Positions 4,048-36,408 of a DNA stretch of 43,640 nucleotides are shown here, one piece after another. Source of the stretch: Minisyncoccota bacterium (GTDB lineage Bacteria > Patescibacteriota > Minisyncoccia > Phycocordibacterales > UBA9973). The stretch is taken from contig JAGOOZ010000001.1 of assembly GCA_017992215.1 (NCBI GenBank), positions 1 to 43,640 of the forward strand, given 5' to 3'. The stretch's first letter is position 1, and every line of letters starts with the position of its first letter. Both the position numbers and the translations under genes were made by a program. The notes below the pieces were generated by a model that had not been told where the DNA came from, made no database searches, and was given only the letters and a program-made list of their open reading frames with translations.

Positions 4048-4776
4048 ATGTCAAATAATATTATTTTCCTCGATACCGAAACAACAGGCAATGAGCCAGT
4101 AAAAGATTTTGTGTGTCAGCTTGCATTTAAAACCTCTGACGAAACGTTCTGTGAACTCTTCAAACCACCAATTCCTATCCCACCTGAAGCAAGTGCTGTG
4201 ACACATATCACCAACAAAATGGTCGCGGACAAAAAGGCATTCAGTGAGAGCGATAACTACGGTACTATCAAGCTCATGCTCGAAGCCTCTAATGCAGTCA
4301 TGGTCGCCCATAATGCAAAGTTTGACTTGGCGATAATTTCCAAAGAAGGAATTGTTCCGACAAATTTTATCTGTACTCTTCGTGTTGCTCGCGCACTCGA
4401 TAAAGATAATGTAATTCCACAATACAAACTCCAATACCTTCGTTATTACCTCGATATTGATATCGAAGCCGACGCACATGACGCACTCGGTGATGTACTC
4501 GTGCTTGAGAAACTATTTGAGCGACTCCTTGCAAAGACAATGAAGGAATACAGTCTTGATGAAGATGGTGCGATAGAAAAAATGATAGAAATATCTTCAA
4601 AGCCATCACTTATGAATCTCTTTTCGTTTGGAAAACACAATGGCAAAACTGTGGCTGAGGTGAAAAATATCGACCCAGGATATCTCGACTGGATGCTCAC
4701 TCAAAAAGAGCAAAACCCCGACAACGAAGAAGATTGGATTTATACGCTCAGGTATTATTTAGGAAGATTGCAATAA
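4048..4776 (+). CDS. DEDDh 3'-5' exonuclease (DnaQ/ExoX-like) with a C-terminal ExoX-type tail
   Basis: ExoI FLDTETTG, ExoII AHNAKFDL, ExoIII HDALGD. C-terminal FGKHNGKTVAEV...GYLDWM module. Confidence 0.85.
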   Translation: MSNNIIFLDTETTGNEPVKDFVCQLAFKTSDETFCELFKPPIPIPPEASAVTHITNKMVADKKAFSESDNYGTIKLMLEASNAVMVAHNAKFDLAIISKEGIVPTNFICTLRVARALDKDNVIPQYKLQYLRYYLDIDIEADAHDALGDVLVLEKLFERLLAKTMKEYSLDEDGAIEKMIEISSKPSLMNLFSFGKHNGKTVAEVKNIDPGYLDWMLTQKEQNPDNEEDWIYTLRYYLGRLQ

Positions 4777-4809
4777 TAAAATCCTGCTTAAATTTTTAAG
4801 CAGGATTTT
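4777..4809 (+). terminator. Rho-independent terminator of the exonuclease gene
   Basis: aaaatcctgcttaaa / tttaagcaggatttt perfect stem followed by a T-run. Confidence 0.85.
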
Positions 4810-4910
4810 CCGCGCCTCACGTTGGAATTGTTTACTTGGCATTGGTGCACAATACACTACATTAAGAGGACCAATTGCCATTCAAAATAACAAAAAATTA
4901 AAAAGATGTC

Positions 4911-4947
4911 AAATAAAAAAATAAGGCCATTTTCTCAAATGACCTTA
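4911..4947 (-). terminator. Rho-independent terminator closing the minus-strand RAMP-helicase-RNA locus
   Basis: Minus-strand reading: UAAGGUCAU-loop-AUGGCCUUA. It is fully paired only on the minus strand (one G-U; C-A on plus). Followed by a U7-rich tract (plus A-run 4911-4921). Confidence 0.7.
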
Positions 4948-5004
4948 TCATTAGCGTAACATACGCGTACTTGACCTAGGCTAACCACTCGGTACTGTAC
5001 GATA

Positions 5005-5203
5005 ATATTTTATATTTTTAAAAAGAACGAATTTTAATTTGTCCGGCTCATTATATGAGCCGGACCCTTACACTAGAAAACAGTAGTTCAGACTGCGGTG
5101 GGACACCATACTAAAACCAACCTGACGATAACTTCTACCAAAACACAAACGAATTTATGATTTGGATAAAAGTGCCGACCCAATAAAACGGGTCGGCAAC
5201 TCC
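5005..5203 (-). ncRNA. Structured RNA module, copy 0 (downstream of the helicase)
   Basis: Contains box B (cttctacca..caaacgaattta..gataaaag, 5132-5172), variable hairpin H1 (5173-5198), box A (aaaaagaacgaattttaattt, 5020-5040) and 10-bp hairpin H3 (5041-5065). Same order and spacing as the copies at 7.1-8.0 kb. Confidence 0.55.
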
Positions 5204-5255
5204 GCACATTACAGCAACGGAGAATGATTCACCGAAGCAAACACAGCATTATTTT

Positions 5256-7076
5256 TTATTTTAATAACCTTAACGCATCACTCACACACTCATCAAATTT
5301 CTTTGAAGATTGATATGCTGGTTGCAACCACGCAGGTAATGCACGAAGTGCAATCCTTTGATATTGCTGTGAAATCAAAAATGTCACACCATAATCATCA
5401 ACACTTCGTACATTGCGACCAGAACCATTCAATATCTTTACCATCTCTCTTCCATCCCAGATACCCCATTTCCCCCCAATACCGAAGCGCCTTTCTTCAA
5501 AAAGAGCTTTTGGGTCATTAGGTGGAGAGTATGATGGGCGAAGCATAAAGATAACAGGTGCAATTCCATTCGGCAAATCAATTCCTGCTCCATATTGAGC
5601 CATGGTACCAAGCAATGCATCACCTTGTCCTTTTTTAAAAAGGGCTACAGCTTGCTTTGGCAAAATACCGTCACAATATGTAGTTATTGGTAAATCAAGA
5701 GATGCCGCAATTGCTTTAAACTTCTCTCTTTCACTTTCAGATACAACAAGCACCAAGCTACGAATACCCTTTTTAGCGAATAGTTTACAAGTCTCAGCAA
5801 TTCTCTTCAGAACTTTTCCCTTCGTTCCCTTGTTCAGATAATTCATAGAAAGGTTTGGCATATCAATTGGTCTGTAGATTCTCCGTTTTTCAGCAGAGAA
5901 ACCAGATTTGAATGAATAAAAAGGTAAAGAACCTTTCTCTCTCCATCCTGTCTCGATACGAAAAACATTTGCATTTTCTTCAAACATTGCTGACACAGGC
6001 CAAACAAGTTTTGGGAAAATTTTCTGAACAATTGGCACCACATAATAACAACAAATGTTTAATGAATAATTTGCATTACCACTAACATTGTCTATGTGTG
6101 AGTACACATAATTCAAAGGCCTCCTTTGCTCAGTCTCGAGTGAAAATTCAAATGATTTAATATATCGATATAAATCGCGAGTAATCATTTCAAGTTTCTT
6201 TATCACTTCAATACTGTCAGCATCGGTTGGATGTTTCTTTTTCAAAACTGCGGCAACTTGTTTTTCAATGGAACTTGGTTTAATTGTTGAAAGAATTTTC
6301 ACCAACTCTGCAAGTTCTTTGTCTTCAAGAAGATTCGTTTTATTCTTGCGACTTTTTACAATCTTTATCATTGTATTTAAAAAATCGCGAAAAATATAAG
6401 ATTCTTTTATGCCATGTTCCTTTAAAAATGCTTCAATTTGCAACAAATGCCAATCTGTCACTTCATAAGAAAGTGATCTGCGTATAATGTCTGGCATCTC
6501 GTGAGCTTCATCGATAACAACTGCTTTTACATCATCCCATTCACGAGCAAATAATTTCGTAAATAAATAGAATGATATAGTACAAACAATTAAGTTACCT
6601 TGTTTGGCTTGATACTTGACATCTAGATACGGACAACGTTTTACATCTTTCTCGTTTGTATCACCAGTAGTTTGATCTACACGATGAGCACAATCTTTAA
6701 GAAGAGAACATGGCACCTGATCAGCTTTATACTTTTCAGTATAATAAAGACAATCGTACTCATTCCTGCCGTAAACAGCATGGAATTGTGGATACATCTT
6801 TTTAACTTGATCTACTTGAGCCTTATTCGGAACCAAGAGAAAATAATCACCCTTACCTTTGTGTGCGTCACGTGCGGCAAGAAGCATTGTGTACTCAGCC
6901 GCTGTTTTACCAGTGCCAGTCGGAGCGCCTAAAATAGCGCCAGATTGAATGTTGTCAAGCATAGTTAGCATTGCATGCTGACCATCTCTAATCTCCGAAT
7001 GAATACCATACGGAAAGTGCGACAGGAATTCCATGCGAGGAATCACATCTGTCTGATGTTCATGATGTTTCATCAT
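5256..7076 (-). CDS. Fe-S cluster DinG/XPD/Rad3-family ATP-dependent DNA helicase
   Basis: Walker A GAPTGTGKT and DEAH box VIDEAH. Four Cys between them (YDC, VPC, KDC, KRC) as in the 4Fe-4S domain. C-terminal helicase motifs GAGIDLPNG and RPSYSPPNDP. Confidence 0.85.
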   Translation of the reverse strand: MMKHHEHQTDVIPRMEFLSHFPYGIHSEIRDGQHAMLTMLDNIQSGAILGAPTGTGKTAAEYTMLLAARDAHKGKGDYFLLVPNKAQVDQVKKMYPQFHAVYGRNEYDCLYYTEKYKADQVPCSLLKDCAHRVDQTTGDTNEKDVKRCPYLDVKYQAKQGNLIVCTISFYLFTKLFAREWDDVKAVVIDEAHEMPDIIRRSLSYEVTDWHLLQIEAFLKEHGIKESYIFRDFLNTMIKIVKSRKNKTNLLEDKELAELVKILSTIKPSSIEKQVAAVLKKKHPTDADSIEVIKKLEMITRDLYRYIKSFEFSLETEQRRPLNYVYSHIDNVSGNANYSLNICCYYVVPIVQKIFPKLVWPVSAMFEENANVFRIETGWREKGSLPFYSFKSGFSAEKRRIYRPIDMPNLSMNYLNKGTKGKVLKRIAETCKLFAKKGIRSLVLVVSESEREKFKAIAASLDLPITTYCDGILPKQAVALFKKGQGDALLGTMAQYGAGIDLPNGIAPVIFMLRPSYSPPNDPKALFEERRFGIGGKWGIWDGREMVKILNGSGRNVRSVDDYGVTFLISQQYQRIALRALPAWLQPAYQSSKKFDECVSDALRLLK

Positions 7077-7095
7077 TTTTTCGTTATTAAAATTT

Positions 7096-7185
7096 GTGAA
7101 AGAACTAAAAATTTACTTCTACAGAACTTCAATTAAAAATTAAAATCCTGATAAAAGCAGGGATCTATTACAGATCCCCAGCTCC
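7096..7185 (-). ncRNA. Structured RNA module, copy I (truncated/degenerate, forms the helicase 5' leader)
   Basis: Box B at 7116-7185 has a diverged P2. P2 still folds as 13 bp on the minus strand with 3 G-U pairs. H1 is GGGGAUCU/AGAUCCCU. A degenerate box A (aaagaactaaaaattta) follows directly, without H3. Confidence 0.45.
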
Positions 7186-7250
7186 GGAGACTACTCTAGG
7201 GAAGCAAGCGTTACCCAGCAAGAGGATAGCGTACAGAAATAAGTAAGATT

Positions 7251-7432
7251 TATATTTTAAAAAGAACGAATTTTAGTTCGTCCTCCAGCCGAAACCGGAG
7301 GACCCGAAGAAGGGACTAGAAAAGTGAAGATTACGCAAGCACACAGCACCTCACAACACCTTAACTTCTACCAGATCACAAACGAGTTTATGATCTGGAT
7401 AAAAGCAGGGATATATCTCAATCCCCAGCTCC
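7251..7432 (-). ncRNA. Structured RNA module, copy II
   Basis: Box B 7365-7432, with P2 CCAGAUCA/UGAUCUGG compensatory relative to the other copies. Box A 7251-7280. H3 is 10 bp with a UUCG loop only when read on the minus strand. Confidence 0.55.
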
Positions 7433-7488
7433 TTACCGCTCAAGAGAGGACCGTAGTGGAGAATACGACACCACACAGCGCAACAATT

Positions 7489-7698
7489 AATATTTTATAC
7501 TTTAAAAAGAACGAATTTTAGTTTATTCAGCTCATCAGTTAGATGAGCTGAATCCAAAGATCACCCAAGATCACTTTAGTTGAGCGTGCACAACCCTGGC
7601 CGAGATCGCCACAAGTAAACGTAATCACTTCTACCAAACCACAAACGAATTTATGATTTGGATAAAAGTGCCGACCCGTTAAATAGGTCGGCAACTCC
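7489..7698 (-). ncRNA. Structured RNA module, copy III
   Basis: Box B 7628-7698, with P2 CCAAAUCA/UGGUUUGG (G-U on minus). Box A 7489-7524. H3 is 12 bp (attcagctcatc / gatgagctgaat). Confidence 0.55.
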
Positions 7699-7760
7699 GG
7701 ACACCAGATTAGAGGAGATAACAAAAGATGACGATACTGAATATAACGCTACCAAACACT

Positions 7761-7972
7761 AATATTTTTTAATTATTATAAACCACAAAGAACGAATTTT
7801 AATTTGTCAGGCTCGTATACGAGCCTGACCCAAAGAGAACACTACTTATCTCTAGCTTACTTCACAATGGGGCACCCTGCGCAAGAACGCCCTAGAGGAT
7901 TCCTACAGCACCTCAAATAAAAACTTGAGAGGCTGATAAGAATGCTCACCCGTACAAACAGGTGAGCAACTT
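7761..7972 (-). ncRNA. Structured RNA module, copy IV (box B diverged in sequence, structure retained)
   Basis: Box A 7761-7806 plus H3 gtcaggctcg/cgagcctgac. The diverged box B at 7901-7972 keeps P2 (13 positions, 1 mismatch on minus versus 3 on plus) and H1 tgctcacc/ggtgagca. Confidence 0.5.
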
Positions 7973-7997
7973 AAAACATCAATTAAAAGAACTTTGA

Positions 7998-8675
7998 TTA
8001 CTTTGCACTTTCTGGTGCATCTGTAATGTTTACCACTTCAAAACGACCGAAGCGACCTTTTTTCCAGGGTCTGAAATCTCCTACTCCAACTTTTGATCCG
8101 GAACAGGTAAATAACTCCATCAATAATTTATTATCAATTTTTGATGTATCATTAATTTTCACTGTTACCTTAAATGCCCATTCATTAAACTTCGGACGAA
8201 TAATAGCAACAGCTACGGGTGTTTTCCCTGCAGATCCTACGCCTCTCCGGGTGTCAACTTCCCATTTTTCTTCTGCGCTTTTCTGGTCTAAAAAAGGAAG
8301 GAAGGACTCCTTCACATCAATCAGATCATACAGCTCAGTACTGGTTGCAGTGGAAATTGCCTTTTTGCCGTTAATTTTAATTTGACGACCACCATTGATG
8401 AGACACCCTAAAAGATATTCGATAGGTAAACCAATTTTACCATCAGGTTTCGAATCTTCACGAATAATCTTATCAGCAGCACGATCCTTTAATGGTCTTT
8501 CTTTTTGAGAAGCCATTGAGGTTTTCGCCTTAATTCCGGCCAATTCTTCCAACGTTTCTTTTGTCATTGGATTCATAAGAATAGGAGTAATTCCTGTGCA
8601 CTCGATAACAACTGTGCGAGTCGCTGAATTGGTACTTTTACCGGTACCATTGTCAGAAGCATTAGAGCCTGCCAT
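7998..8675 (-). CDS. Hypothetical 225-aa protein with RAMP (Cas7/Csm3/Csf2-like) sequence patterns
   Basis: N-terminal strand VVIECTGITPILMN. Then DKIIRED..GKIGLPIEYLLGCLINGGR, resembling D-x-P-h-h-R-D...hPhhPGSShKGxhR. Near the C-terminus, a glycine-rich loop GVGDFRPWKKGRFGRFEV. This is pattern recall, not an alignment. Confidence 0.4.
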   Translation of the reverse strand: MAGSNASDNGTGKSTNSATRTVVIECTGITPILMNPMTKETLEELAGIKAKTSMASQKERPLKDRAADKIIREDSKPDGKIGLPIEYLLGCLINGGRQIKINGKKAISTATSTELYDLIDVKESFLPFLDQKSAEEKWEVDTRRGVGSAGKTPVAVAIIRPKFNEWAFKVTVKINDTSKIDNKLLMELFTCSGSKVGVGDFRPWKKGRFGRFEVVNITDAPESAK

Positions 8676-8826: not shown

Positions 8827-9879
8827 ATGTCTACCGTACTTATGATTGTGCTTGGGATTCTTGTTGGCCTTACTATTGGCTTCTTTTTTATGCGTCAAAA
8901 TCGGAAACCCGAAAGCGCAAAAGATGATACAGGATTCCAACTACTCCTCTCTCATATCAATGAACTTGGTCGAACGATTGACCAGAAACTTTCTGATTCA
9001 CAGAAAGATATGAATCAATCAATGCGATATCAATCTACCGAGACATCACGCATTATTGCCGATATTACCGAGAAAATCACTCGTCTCGATGAGACTAATA
9101 AACAAGTCGTTTCATTTGCTGACCAATTAAAGAATTTGCAAGATATATTGAAGAATCCAAAACAGCGTGGAATCCTCGGAGAATACTATCTCGAAACACT
9201 TCTTAAAAATGTGATGCCTCCCGGTAGTTACCAAATGCAATACGCATTCCCTGATAGTACGATTGTCGATGCGGCGGTATTTGTGAAAGACAAAATCATT
9301 CCAATTGATTCAAAATTCTCACTTGAAAATTACAATCGTATTTCAGAAACAAATGACCCAGCTGAGAAAGAACGCTTTGAGAAAATATTTGTAAATGATT
9401 TGAAGAATCGAATTGTCGAAACATCAAAATACATCCAACCCGAAGAAGGTACGATGGACTTCGCATTTATGTTTATCCCTCACGAAGCTATCTATTATGA
9501 TTTACTCATCAACAAAATCGGCGCAGTAACCGAAGACACAGAGAATCTGATTCAGCGTGCGGCAAGTAAATATAAAGTTATCATTGTGTCCCCTACATCA
9601 TTCCTCGCATATTTACAGACAGTGCTTCAGGGATTGAAAGCACTTCAAATCGAAGAGTCCGCCAAAGATATCATCAAACGTGTCGGAGAACTAGGAACGC
9701 ACCTGCGTACGTACGAAGAAGCACACCAGAAGCTCGGTAATGCCCTCGCAACAACCGTAAACCATTTCAACAAATCAAATCATGAATTTAGAAAAATAGA
9801 CAAAGATGTGATGCGCATCACGGGTGATGCGATAAGCATTGAAGCACTCACTCTCGACAAACCACAAGATGATGAATAA
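8827..9879 (+). CDS. rmuC: DNA recombination protein RmuC
   Basis: N-terminal TM helix, coiled-coil region, KQRGILGE motif and a C-terminal nuclease-like core (FMFIPHEAIY). An extended -10 TGcTAAAAT lies 6 nt upstream of the ATG. Confidence 0.85.
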   Translation: MSTVLMIVLGILVGLTIGFFFMRQNRKPESAKDDTGFQLLLSHINELGRTIDQKLSDSQKDMNQSMRYQSTETSRIIADITEKITRLDETNKQVVSFADQLKNLQDILKNPKQRGILGEYYLETLLKNVMPPGSYQMQYAFPDSTIVDAAVFVKDKIIPIDSKFSLENYNRISETNDPAEKERFEKIFVNDLKNRIVETSKYIQPEEGTMDFAFMFIPHEAIYYDLLINKIGAVTEDTENLIQRAASKYKVIIVSPTSFLAYLQTVLQGLKALQIEESAKDIIKRVGELGTHLRTYEEAHQKLGNALATTVNHFNKSNHEFRKIDKDVMRITGDAISIEALTLDKPQDDE

Positions 9880-11351: not shown

Positions 11352-11425
11352 TGGCTTGGGGACAGGGATTCGAACCCCAATTAACGGCTTCAAAGGCCGC
11401 TGTCCTACCATTAGACGATCCCCAA
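11352..11425 (-). tRNA. tRNA-Gln (anticodon UUG), CCA encoded
   Basis: Minus strand: UUGGGGA acceptor, D arm GUCU/GGAC, anticodon stem GCGGC/GCCGU with loop CUUUGAA, T arm UGGGG-UUCGAAU-CCCUG, UCCCCAA-G-CCA. Confidence 0.9.
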
Positions 11426-26865: not shown

Positions 26866-26948
26866 GCGTCGGTGGTGGAGTGGTCTATCACATCAGACTG
26901 TAAATCTGACGGCCTTGGCCTTCGTTGGTTCGAATCCAACCCGGCGCA
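26866..26948 (+). tRNA. tRNA-Tyr (anticodon GUA), long variable arm, CCA not encoded
   Basis: Acceptor GCGUCGG/CCGGCGC (one G-U). Anticodon stem UCAGA/UCUGA with loop CUGUAAA. Variable arm CGGCCUUGGCCUUCG. T arm GUUGG-UUCGAAU-CCAAC. Discriminator A. Confidence 0.9.
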
Positions 26949-36226: not shown

Positions 36227-36298
36227 GGCCTAGTCGCCAAGTGGTAAGGCAAAGATCTGCAAAATCTTTATACGGCGGTTCGATTCCGCCCTAGGCCT
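36227..36298 (+). tRNA. tRNA-Cys (anticodon GCA)
   Basis: Acceptor GGCCUAG/CUAGGCC. Anticodon stem AAGAU/AUCUU with loop CUGCAAA. T arm GGCGG-UUCGAUU-CCGCC. Discriminator U. Confidence 0.9.
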
Positions 36299-36323: not shown

Positions 36324-36408
36324 GCCCGGGTGGCGGAATTGGTATACGCGCTAGTCTTAGGAACTAGTGGAGCAATCCTTGGAGGTTCAAGTCCTCTCCC
36401 GGGCACCA
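36324..36408 (+). tRNA. tRNA-Leu (anticodon UAG), long variable arm, CCA encoded
   Basis: Acceptor GCCCGGG/CCCGGGC. Anticodon stem CUAGU/ACUAG with loop CUUAGGA. Variable arm UGGAGCAAUCCUU. T arm GGAGG-UUCAAGU-CCUCU. A-CCA. Confidence 0.9.

What the first reader, a model, noticed from the sequence alone, without database searches (positions are those of the whole stretch)
7096..7972. Tandem structured RNA modules: compensatory stem changes and G-U pairs assign them to the minus strand
Each module, read 5' to 3' on the minus strand, has: variable hairpin H1, CUUUUAUC, stem-loop P2 with conserved loop UAAAYUCGUUUG, UAGAAG, about 60-70 nt of diverged sequence, GG(G), 10-12 bp hairpin H3, then AAAYUAAAAUUCGUUCUUUUUAAA(A/G)UAUAAAAUAUU. 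The stems differ in sequence but keep pairing. P2 is CCAGAUCA/UGAUCUGG (II), CCAAAUCA/UGGUUUGG (III, G-U) and CCAAAUCA/UGUUUUGG (0, one U-U). In I it is 13 bp, CAGGAUUUUAAUU/AAUUGAAGUUCUG, with 3 G-U. In IV it covers 13 positions, CAGCCUCUCAAGU/AUUUGAGGUGCUG, with 1 mismatch on minus versus 3 on plus. H3 is GUCCGGCUCA (0), GUCCUCCGGU with a UUCG loop (II, 10 bp on minus but 7 bp on plus), AUUCAGCUCAUC (III) and GUCAGGCUCG (IV). H1 falls into three unrelated sequence families: GCCGACC (0, III), GGGGAUC (I, II; extra G-U pairs only on minus) and GCUCACC (IV). This pattern indicates selection on RNA secondary structure rather than on DNA sequence or coding.
Basis: seen in the sequence. Interest (0 to 1): 0.8.

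Follow-up and report, generated by a model that had tools for sequence, protein, structure and literature searches.

The report
Guide-RNA array of a VIPR system
The tandem "structured RNA modules" are an array of about ten guide-RNA genes (vrRNAs) belonging to a VIPR system, a CRISPR-like RNA-guided DNA-recognition system first described in 2026. Here it sits in the chromosome of an uncultured Patescibacteria (CPR) bacterium, next to a Cas7-like Vipr protein and an XPD/DinG-type helicase.

Summary

The interpretation misses the main feature. The "60-70 nt of diverged sequence" in each module, and the stretch before each H1, are tracts of 9-14 pentanucleotide repeats (N-S-Y-N-N). Each tract ends in GGR plus a stable hairpin.

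The upstream ORF (7998-8675, minus) is a homolog of the SUSP1 Vipr protein (profile E=2.5e-15, Cas7-like fold). The downstream gene is an XPD/DinG-family helicase.

The order Vipr, array, helicase, array recurs in at least 15 CPR genomes; four further loci from three more genomes have the two genes divergent. Their gene-free gaps are packed with the same period-5 tracts.

This matches a VIPR system (bioRxiv 10.64898/2026.04.26.720920). Each reader module is two vrRNAs; I count ten in the locus.

H1 and H3 are 3' cap hairpins. P2 is really a roughly 19-bp hairpin, because CUUUUA pairs with UAGAAG. It separates consecutive guides and covaries strongly in 19 copies from 6 loci (5 genomes).

No targets were found. 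Verdict: a new member of a very recently described kind.

The parts
7998..8675 (-). vipr gene (225 aa): Cas7-like RAMP protein, homolog of the SUSP1 Vipr protein
   Evidence: Profile of 12 homologs against PDB 36pp_D 'SUSP1 Vipr protein': E=2.5e-15, full length. AF2 model has pLDDT 80; its best structural matches are Cas7/Csm3. G-loop GVGDFRP aligns to SUSP1 GVGDWRP (D177/W178/R179), and R160 aligns to R138.
7900..7969 (-). H1-IV hairpin (7943-7969) plus P2ext-IV hairpin (7900-7942). This junction element lies between the vipr stop codon and the first guide; no tract precedes it.
   Evidence: R1 model hit of 77.7 bits. Outer stem UUCUUA/UAGGAA is compensatory relative to CUUUUA/UAGAAG.
7806..7901 (-). 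vrRNA IVb: 14-pentad tract 7832-7901, then GGG plus 10-bp hairpin H3 at 7806-7831
7761..7805 (-). AT-rich junction AAAUUAAAAUUCGUUCUUU...UAUAAU, promoter-like (TTAAAA-16-TATAAT)
7669..7758 (-). vrRNA IIIa: 12-pentad tract 7699-7758, then GGAGU plus hairpin H1 at 7669-7698
7628..7668 (-). P2ext-III: about 19-bp hairpin with a UUCG loop, lying between guides IIIa and IIIb
7525..7625 (-). vrRNA IIIb: 14-pentad tract 7556-7625 (pyrimidine at position 3 in 14 of 14), then GGA plus 12-bp hairpin H3 at 7525-7555
7489..7524 (-). Junction AAACUAAAAUUCGUUCUUUUUAAAGUAUAAAAUAUU, promoter-like
7406..7487 (-). vrRNA IIa: 11-pentad tract 7433-7487, then GGAGC plus H1 at 7406-7432 (its G-U pairs form only on the minus strand)
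7365..7405 (-). P2ext-II hairpin (CUCG loop)
7280..7365 (-). vrRNA IIb: 12-pentad tract 7306-7365, then GGG plus H3 at 7280-7305 (UUCG loop, two G-U pairs)
7245..7279 (-). Junction GAACUAAAAUUCGUUCUUUUUAAAAUAUAAAUCUU, promoter-like
7158..7240 (-). vrRNA Ia: 11-pentad tract 7186-7240, then GGAGC plus H1 at 7158-7185
7116..7157 (-). P2ext-I hairpin (13 + 6 bp), directly upstream of the helicase start codon
5256..7076 (-). Accessory (vap-like) gene: XPD/Rad3/DinG-family SF2 helicase, 606 aa
   Evidence: Pfam DEAD, DEAD_2 and Helicase_C_2. PADLOC typeIV_DinG, E=9.5e-33. PDB XPD, about 1e-6. A homolog lies next to the vipr homolog in 19 CPR loci.
5173..5248 (-). vrRNA 0a: 9-pentad tract 5204-5248, then GGAGU plus H1 at 5173-5203
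5132..5172 (-). P2ext-0 hairpin
5041..5132 (-). vrRNA 0b: 13-pentad tract 5068-5132, then GGG plus H3 at 5041-5067
5004..5040 (-). Junction AAAUUAAAAUUCGUUCUUUUUAAAAAUAUAAAAUAUU, promoter-like
4915..5001 (-). vrRNA 0c: 11-pentad tract 4947-5001 (two off-consensus pentads), then a 13-bp hairpin with a U7 tail (intrinsic terminator)
4775..4912 (-). Sigma-70-like promoter TTGACA-17-TATTTT (4884-4912), then vrRNA 0d: 10-pentad tract 4812-4861 and GGAAA plus 14-bp hairpin 4775-4811. The hairpin is shared as a terminator with the convergent exoX-like gene.

Best explanation
The locus 4775-8675 (minus strand) is a chromosomal VIPR (Viral Interference Programmable Repeat) system of a Candidatus Paceibacterota (CPR) bacterium. 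Its order is vipr, six vrRNA genes, an XPD/DinG-family helicase, then four more vrRNA genes.

Anatomy of one vrRNA:
- A tract of 9-14 pentanucleotides, N-S-Y-N-N. This is a relaxed form of the canonical GGY-NN.
- The tract ends in GGR.

Mechanism inferred from the SUSP1 and P. fulva systems:
1. One Vipr protomer binds each pentad.
2. The protomers sequester the S-Y scaffold bases.
3. The variable bases are displayed as a non-contiguous guide that reads double-stranded DNA.
4. The 3' hairpin caps the filament.
5. The helicase would be recruited to the bound target to unwind or displace it, much as DinG acts with the Cas7 filament in type IV-A CRISPR.

The roughly 19-bp P2ext hairpin between consecutive guides is most likely a processing or insulating element that separates a guide from the RNA downstream of it. 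The AT-rich AAAYUAAAAUUCGUUC...UAUAAAAU junctions are probable promoters.

Shown here by computation: protein homology, the period-5 tracts and their strand, the hairpins and their covariation, and the conserved synteny.

Inferred only: transcription, RNP formation, the targeting code, the helicase role and the role of P2ext.
For: **Protein**
- The profile of ORF225 homologs matches PDB 36pp_D 'SUSP1 Vipr protein' over its full length, E=2.5e-15.
- R138, D177 and R179 are conserved. W178 is replaced by F.
- The AF2 model's best structural matches are Cas7/Csm3 RAMPs.

**Period-5 tracts**
- S-Y at period 5 in at least 8 of 10 pentads occurs at 9 places in the 43.6-kb window. All 9 are on the minus strand and inside this locus.
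- The plus strand has none. Shuffles of the array give a mean of 0.06 against 6 observed.
- Pentad logo: position 2 is G/C in 82%, position 3 is U/C in 100% (the tracts were picked as pyrimidine runs at this position), and positions 1, 4 and 5 are variable.

**Synteny**
- 19 CPR loci carry a vipr homolog next to the same helicase.
- In 15 of them a gene-free gap of 0.7-2.3 kb lies between the two genes.
- The gaps and the regions after the helicase are packed with the same tracts on the gene strand, 3-17 tracts between the genes in most loci.
- Across 14 loci the logo is N-S-Y-N-N.

**Tails**
- 74% of 106 tracts are followed at once by GGG or GGA.
- The next 50 nt fold at -18.2 kcal/mol, against -7.8 for controls (p=4e-44).

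**Link between the protein family and pentad RNAs**
- Non-CPR homologs at about 30% identity have canonical GGC-NN tracts next to the gene.

**Hairpins**
- H1 and P2ext: 95.7% of cells paired and 21 of 23 pairs with changes on both sides, in 19 copies from 6 loci.

**Published description**
- A VIPR system is a Vipr protein, a vap gene, and vrRNAs of 9-16 pentads followed by a structured 3' tail.
- Seven types are described. Some have helicase vaps and some have related repeat consensus sequences.
Against: - There are no expression data for this organism.
- The pentad consensus is N-S-Y-N-N, not GGY-NN. Position 2 is C in about a third of pentads, whereas in SUSP1 changing either G abolished function (legend of Fig. 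S12).
- No target was found under the published 1-nt-skip rule or three alternative rules. I searched the window and 52 related loci, IMG/VR and JGI metagenomes.
- The tail is a simple hairpin, not the pseudoknot of the SUSP1 clade.
- I could not see the paper's figures or tables, so I cannot say which VIPR type this is, or whether the CPR clade is already included.
Confidence: 0.88

Rival explanations
1. A family of tandem 'sibling' structured small RNAs or cis-regulatory leaders. Their function lies in the conserved hairpins, and they have no guide function or Vipr binding.
For: The hairpins H1, P2ext and H3 covary strongly. The junctions carry promoter-like and terminator-like signals.
Against: - It does not explain the strict period-5 N-S-Y-N-N tracts, which are confined to this locus and strand.
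- It does not explain their presence next to every Vipr homolog examined, including canonical GGY-NN next to distant homologs.
- Rfam has no matching family.
Confidence: 0.05
2. A decayed mobile or repetitive extragenic element (REP/BIME, MITE or PeSL-like promoter-terminator cassettes) that piled up between two genes.
For: The copies are tandem and diverged. Hairpins sit next to promoter-like sequence. Short-read assemblies break inside the array.
Against: - There are no copies elsewhere in the 43.6-kb window or in the 10-kb contig L020 from the same species. AAAYTCGTT, the R1 model and the period-5 tracts occur only in the locus.
- Position and strand relative to vipr and the helicase are conserved across CPR phyla, although the sequence has turned over completely.
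Confidence: 0.02
3. A CRISPR array variant, or a TIGR-Tas-like array, served by the DinG-like helicase as in type IV-A CRISPR.
For: The neighbours are a Cas7-like protein and a DinG-family helicase. The array alternates conserved and variable segments.
Against: - There are no identical direct repeats of 25-40 nt, and Tandem Repeats Finder reports no array.
- The variable segments are internally periodic (5 nt) rather than free spacers.
- No Csf1, Cas5, Cas6 or adaptation genes lie nearby.
- The protein groups with Vipr by sequence, not with Csf2 or other Cas7.
Confidence: 0.03

Closest known systems
VIPR systems, type II (Escherichia phage SUSP1, P. fulva prophage); bioRxiv 10.64898/2026.04.26.720920 and 10.64898/2026.04.26.720927
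   Same: - A minimal locus: a Vipr RAMP protein plus one accessory gene plus vrRNA genes in the flanking intergenic regions, both before and after the accessory gene.
- vrRNAs are about 100 nt: 9-16 pentanucleotide repeats followed by a structured 3' tail.
- The G-loop D-aromatic-R and the thumb R are conserved.
   Different: - The host is a CPR bacterial chromosome among housekeeping genes, not a phage or prophage.
- The repeat consensus is N-S-Y-N-N rather than GGY-NN.
- The tail is a simple variable hairpin rather than a conserved pseudoknot.
- The accessory gene is a helicase, not a DNA-binding protein.
- A covarying hairpin of about 19 bp separates consecutive guides.
- No targets have been identified.
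VIPR types III-V, with nuclease or helicase vap genes (same preprint)
   Same: An accessory enzyme acts on DNA, and the location is cellular. The paper also reports 'related consensus' repeats (NNNGG, YNNNG, NNNNG). The CPR pattern is closest to YNNNG.
   Different: Only the text is available to me. The figures and tables that define the types, their taxa and their vrRNA logos were not. Assignment to a type is therefore untested. Position 2 here is G or C, not G alone.
Type IV-A CRISPR-Cas (Csf2/Cas7 filament plus the DinG helicase Csf4); from my own knowledge of the literature
   Same: A Cas7-like RNA-guided filament is paired with an XPD/DinG-family helicase and no nuclease. The helicase's best PADLOC match is typeIV_DinG.
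   Different: - There is no CRISPR array, Cas5, Cas6 or Csf1.
- The guide is non-contiguous.
- The protein is related to Vipr by sequence, not to Csf2.

Membership tests
VIPR system | A Vipr protein: a single-RRM RAMP with a G-loop and a thumb, homologous to characterised Viprs | tested here: met
   - Profile against SUSP1 Vipr (PDB 36pp_D): E=2.5e-15 over residues 1-190.
- Foldseek's best matches are Cas7/Csm3.
- GVGDFRP aligns with GVGDWRP. R138, D177 and R179 are conserved; W178 is F.
VIPR system | vrRNAs with tandem pentanucleotide repeats (YNNGG/GGY-NN or a related consensus; at least 4 units, typically 9-16) | tested here: met
   - Ten tracts of 9-14 pentads on the gene strand.
- The signal is unique to the locus within the window.
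- The consensus is N-S-Y-N-N, a relaxed variant.
VIPR system | Strict GGY scaffold (both guanines are required in SUSP1) | tested here: not met
   - Position 1 is unconserved.
- Position 2 is G in 46% and C in 36% of pentads in the window. The same holds in 14 CPR loci.
- The paper allows 'related consensus' types, so this does not exclude membership. It does mark a difference from type II.
VIPR system | A structured 3' tail capping the repeat tract | tested here: met
   GGR plus a stable hairpin follows the tracts. H1 covaries. The tail is a simple hairpin, not a pseudoknot.
VIPR system | A minimal locus with an adjacent accessory (vap) gene that acts on DNA, and no CRISPR array or other cas genes | tested here: met
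   - The XPD/DinG-family helicase is adjacent and syntenic in 19 CPR loci.
- There is no CRISPR-like repeat array.
- The neighbours are housekeeping genes.
VIPR system | vrRNAs are expressed and co-purify with Vipr as an RNP filament | not testable with these tools
   No transcriptome or biochemistry is available for this uncultured organism.
VIPR system | The NN dinucleotides specify DNA targets under the 1-nt-skip rule, and natural targets lie in competing mobile elements | tested here: inconclusive
   No above-chance match was found in the window and related loci, in IMG/VR or in JGI metagenomes. The searches needed exact seeds, and CPR phages are poorly sampled.
Type IV-A CRISPR-Cas | A CRISPR array plus Csf1, Csf2, Csf3 and Cas6 together with DinG | tested here: not met
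   Only a DinG-like helicase and one RAMP protein are present. There is no repeat-spacer array.
Rfam structured RNA families | A match to any curated covariance model | tested here: not met
   There are no matches at the gathering threshold apart from four tRNAs. In 4700-8100 only chance-level matches appear, at E of 0.38 or worse.

The most novel reading that the evidence does not exclude
The CPR helicase-associated clade may be a mechanistically distinct VIPR variant.

- Its scaffold is only S-Y. Position 1 is free and the G-loop aromatic residue is F rather than W. Three bases per pentad could therefore be read, under a skip rule different from the published one.
- A covarying hairpin of about 19 bp between guides could act as a dedicated, RNase III-like processing signal.
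- An XPD/DinG helicase effector would make this a VIPR counterpart of type IV-A CRISPR.
- Because the system is chromosomal and widespread in CPR bacteria, it might regulate host or host-partner DNA rather than phages alone.
Probability: 0.3. Interest if true: 0.7.

Novelty: new member of a known kind. Interest (0 to 1): 0.55.

Why it matters
VIPR systems were reported only in 2026, as a possible ancestor of CRISPR effectors with a new, non-contiguous guide code.

This locus is a natural example with many guides (ten), in the chromosome of a CPR bacterium, paired with a DinG/XPD-type helicase.

- It shows the system is a conserved feature across several CPR lineages.
- It provides about a hundred related natural vrRNAs from 14 loci for studying a relaxed scaffold (N-S-Y).
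- It identifies a conserved inter-guide hairpin that may explain how the arrays are processed.
- Short-read assemblies break inside these arrays, so such systems are probably under-counted in metagenome-assembled genomes.

Tried and rejected
- **Rfam.** The gathering scan of the window and a permissive scan of 4700-8100 found nothing beyond tRNAs and chance hits.
- **Phage DNA.** blastn of 6500-8600 against 50,697 phage genomes gave no match. My initial idea that the window was a phage was dropped once the flanking genes proved to be housekeeping genes.
- **Tandem Repeats Finder.** It does not report the array, because the copies are too diverged.
- **Dispersed mobile repeat.** Rejected because the motifs, the R1 model and the tracts occur only in the locus.
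- **Replication origin.** Considered because dnaN is a neighbour in L005. Rejected because the window shows no GC-skew switch and the flanks differ between loci.
- **Small ORFs.** Those in the array are incompatible with a 5-nt periodicity.
- **Cas6-like nuclease.** Replaced as a reading of ORF225 by the direct sequence hit to Vipr.
- **Target prediction.** I tried NN with skips of 0-3 and NNN with skips of 0-1 against the window and 52 loci. I also ran four IMG/VR scans and one JGI metagenome scan, and extended every hit. Outside the seeded positions, all hits matched at chance level.
- **VIPR type.** The preprint's supplementary tables are not held, so the type could not be assigned.
- **AAAYTCGTT-N10-TAKAAR as a shared promoter.** It stays ambiguous. 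TAGAAG is also the 3' strand of a covarying stem.
Full report
**1. The observation**

There are four tandem modules between two minus-strand ORFs: IV 7761-7997, III 7489-7760, II 7245-7488, and a truncated I at 7077-7248. A fifth module, '0', lies at 5004-5256, after the downstream ORF and outside the stated coordinates (alignment A1).

Repeat finding recovers the conserved blocks. AAAYTCGTT occurs 7 times in the 43.6-kb window, and all 7 are in these modules.

I aligned the five H1-P2 segments and wrote the structure by hand. The counts are:
- 96.5% of cells paired;
- 11 of 23 pairs changed on both sides;
- 0 of 500 shuffles as good;
- 35-50% paired when the 3' partners are slid by 1-3 columns.

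Folding favours the minus strand: -40.3 vs -23.1 kcal/mol for unit IIIa, and -37.2 vs -29.3 for IIIb.

Two corrections follow from the same data:
- The 'conserved' CUUUUA and UAGAAG pair with each other. Module IV has UUCUUA/UAGGAA, which is two compensatory changes.
- The 'loop' UAAAYUCGUUUG is itself paired (UAAA/UUUG) around a YUCG tetraloop.

P2 is therefore a hairpin of about 19 bp with one bulged U. I call it P2ext.

**2. Context**

The window is a bacterial chromosome, not a phage. It encodes Obg, DnaX, Dus, SerRS, TopA, RelA/SpoT, ClpB, RNase J, RmuC, YqeY, an ExoX-like exonuclease and an AI-2E transporter. Contig L020 is 99% identical over the ORF's N-terminus and names the organism as a Candidatus Paceibacterota MAG.

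The gene after the array (5256-7076) is an XPD/Rad3/DinG-family helicase:
- Pfam DEAD_2 and Helicase_C_2;
- PADLOC typeIV_DinG, E=9.5e-33;
- PDB XPD, about 1e-6.

The gene before the array (7998-8675, 225 aa) has no Pfam, NCBIfam or PADLOC match. Its only hit is PHROG 4652, of unknown function.

**3. Identity of the upstream protein**

Only 11 homologs turned up in the 5.8-billion-protein collection. Their alignment shows a C-terminal G-V-G-D-F/W-R-P...G-x-F-G-x-F glycine-rich loop.

- A profile of that alignment matches one PDB entry over its full length: 36pp_D, 'SUSP1 Vipr protein', E=2.5e-15.
- The AF2 model has a mean pLDDT of 80. Its best structural matches are Cas7/Csm3 subunits of type VII and type III CRISPR complexes.
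- In the pairwise alignment, R160, D200 and R202 of the window protein correspond to SUSP1 R138, D177 and R179. These residues contact the vrRNA scaffold in the cryo-EM study. W178 is replaced by F.

**4. What VIPR is**

This section summarises two preprints, 10.64898/2026.04.26.720920 and 10.64898/2026.04.26.720927.

- VIPR loci comprise a Vipr RAMP protein and usually one accessory gene (vap).
- The flanking intergenic DNA encodes vrRNAs of about 100 nt. Each has 9-16 pentanucleotide repeats (GGY-NN) followed by a structured 3' tail.
- One Vipr protomer binds each repeat. The GGY bases are sequestered, and the NN bases read double-stranded DNA while skipping every third target base.
- Seven types are described. 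Some have nuclease or helicase vaps, and some use related repeat consensus sequences (NNNGG, YNNNG, NNNNG).
- About a quarter of the systems are in cellular chromosomes.

**5. Testing the vrRNA feature in the window**

I took the pentads in register with those pyrimidine runs; position 3 is therefore U or C by construction. The 95 pentads give this logo:

| Position | Composition |
|---|---|
| 1 | variable |
| 2 | G 46%, C 36% |
| 3 | U 84%, C 16% |
| 4-5 | variable |

I then counted pentads with S-Y in register. A score of at least 8 of 10 occurs at only nine places in the whole window. All nine are on the minus strand and inside this locus: 7905-7826, 7762-7678, 7619-7545, 7491-7427, 7379-7295, 7244-7175, 5131-5057, 5000-4951 and 4865-4806. 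The plus strand has none. Shuffles of the array give a mean of 0.06 clusters against 6 observed.

Tract 0a (5204-5248) scores lower on this measure. Counting it, the locus holds ten candidate vrRNAs:
- IVb, IIIa, IIIb, IIa, IIb and Ia, between vipr and the helicase;
- 0a, 0b, 0c and 0d, after the helicase.

Each tract ends in GGR and is followed at once by a stable hairpin: H1 for the 'a' guides, H3 for the 'b' guides, and intrinsic-terminator hairpins for 0c and 0d.

**6. Comparative evidence**

- A scan of one genome per species found 50 loci encoding relatives of the protein.
- Nineteen loci from CPR genomes or matching metagenome contigs carry the vipr homolog next to a 37-43%-identical copy of the same helicase. 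The named ones are Paceibacterota, Saccharibacteria, Doudnabacteria and Taylorbacteria. In 15 loci a gene-free gap of 0.7-2.3 kb separates the two genes. In 4 loci the genes are divergent and each is followed by its own array.
- Those gaps, and the DNA after the helicase, are filled with the same period-5 tracts on the gene strand. There are 3-17 tracts between the genes in most loci and 1-12 after the helicase.
- I picked tracts by pyrimidine periodicity alone. Position 2 is then G/C in 73-92% of pentads in 14 loci, and position 1 is unconserved.
- Of 106 tracts, 74% are followed by GGG or GGA. The next 50 nt fold at a mean of -18.2 kcal/mol, against -7.8 for control DNA from the same loci (p=4e-44).
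- Distant non-CPR homologs, about 30% identical and without the helicase, have canonical GG(C/U)-NN tracts directly beside the gene. This ties the protein family to pentad RNAs independently of the preprint. It also shows that the CPR clade uses a relaxed scaffold.

**7. The hairpins**

A covariance model built from the five H1-P2ext copies finds 14 further copies. They lie in L008, L009, L013, L016 and L018, all on the gene strand and inside the arrays.

In the 19-sequence alignment:
- 95.7% of cells pair;
- 21 of 23 pairs change on both sides;
- slid controls pair in 37-54% of cells.

The alignment was fitted to the model, so it leans towards the structure. Even so, the stem sequences are almost entirely different between loci.

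P2ext also follows the vipr stop codon with no tract before it (module IV). It also precedes the helicase start with no tract after it (module I). It therefore behaves as a junction element between a guide and whatever RNA follows, rather than as part of one guide.

I infer a processing or insulating role; a 19-bp hairpin could serve as an RNase III-type substrate. An alternative is that the region doubles as a promoter. AAAYTCGTT-N10-TAGAAG has the same spacing as AAATTCGTT-N10-TATAAA in the AT-rich junctions. In L012 each guide clearly has its own TTGACA-17-TATAAT-like promoter and terminator. I could not decide between these readings.

**8. Targets**

I extracted the variable dinucleotides of all ten guides and searched with the published 1-nt-skip rule, and with skips of 0, 2 and 3.

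- In the window and 52 loci the best scores equal those of shuffled guides. The only exceptions are the guides' own genes at skip 3.
- Reading three variable bases per pentad gave nothing either.
- Two exact 10-dinucleotide patterns found nothing in IMG/VR.
- Two 8-dinucleotide seeds in IMG/VR and one 9-dinucleotide seed in JGI metagenomes gave 17, 23 and 11 hits. Outside the seeded positions these match at chance level.

The targets, and the exact code for this clade, remain unknown.

**9. Verdict**

The feature is a vrRNA array of a VIPR system with an XPD/DinG-type helicase as its accessory gene, in a CPR bacterial chromosome. The kind has been known since 2026, and the preprint mentions helicase-associated types and variant repeat consensus sequences. 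I therefore rate it a new member of a known kind.

Three points may go beyond what is published, though I could not check them against the preprint's figures:
- the N-S-Y scaffold, with G or C at position 2;
- the covarying inter-guide hairpin;
- the breadth of the system across CPR lineages.

Noticed in passing
L001-L004 (ends correspond to window 7640-7648); L020 (ends inside vipr): Independent short-read assemblies of the same species all break inside the array at the repeated P2 motif, or within vipr. VIPR arrays in CPR MAGs are therefore likely to be truncated and under-counted.
   Followed up: partly
L005 4535-5697 and 8335-10470; L007; L019: In some CPR genomes vipr and the helicase are divergent. 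Each is followed by its own long array on its own strand (in L005, 17 tracts after vipr and about 8 after the helicase). Some junctions carry a perfect extended -10 (TGTTATAAT).
   Followed up: partly
L027 6054-7016, L028 9524-9989, L037, L045 and others: Non-CPR homologs of the protein (Chloroflexota, Magnetococcales and others; about 30% identity, no helicase) have canonical GG(C/U)-NN pentad tracts immediately beside the gene.
   Followed up: partly
window 4048-4776 (+): An ExoX-like DEDDh exonuclease gene converges on the last vrRNA and shares its terminator hairpin (4777-4809). PADLOC lists DEDDh as a Cas-associated domain. Its linkage to VIPR was not examined in the other loci.
   Followed up: no
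window 8827-9879 (+): An RmuC-family gene lies divergently upstream of vipr. L001, from the same species, shows the same arrangement.
   Followed up: no
window 7323-7336 (minus strand, guide IIb) and L005 8656-8669: The word TTGCGTAATCTTCA is shared between a guide in the window and a guide in a distant CPR genome. It could be chance, given the constrained scaffold, or it could reflect a shared target.
   Followed up: no
L023 5173-5733: A second, weak Vipr-like match (23.6% identity) lies after the second array. It may be a paralogous vipr gene.
   Followed up: no
window 11355-11425 (-), 26866-26948 (+), 36227-36298 (+), 36324-36405 (+): Four tRNA genes. These are the only Rfam gathering-threshold matches in the window.
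   Followed up: no
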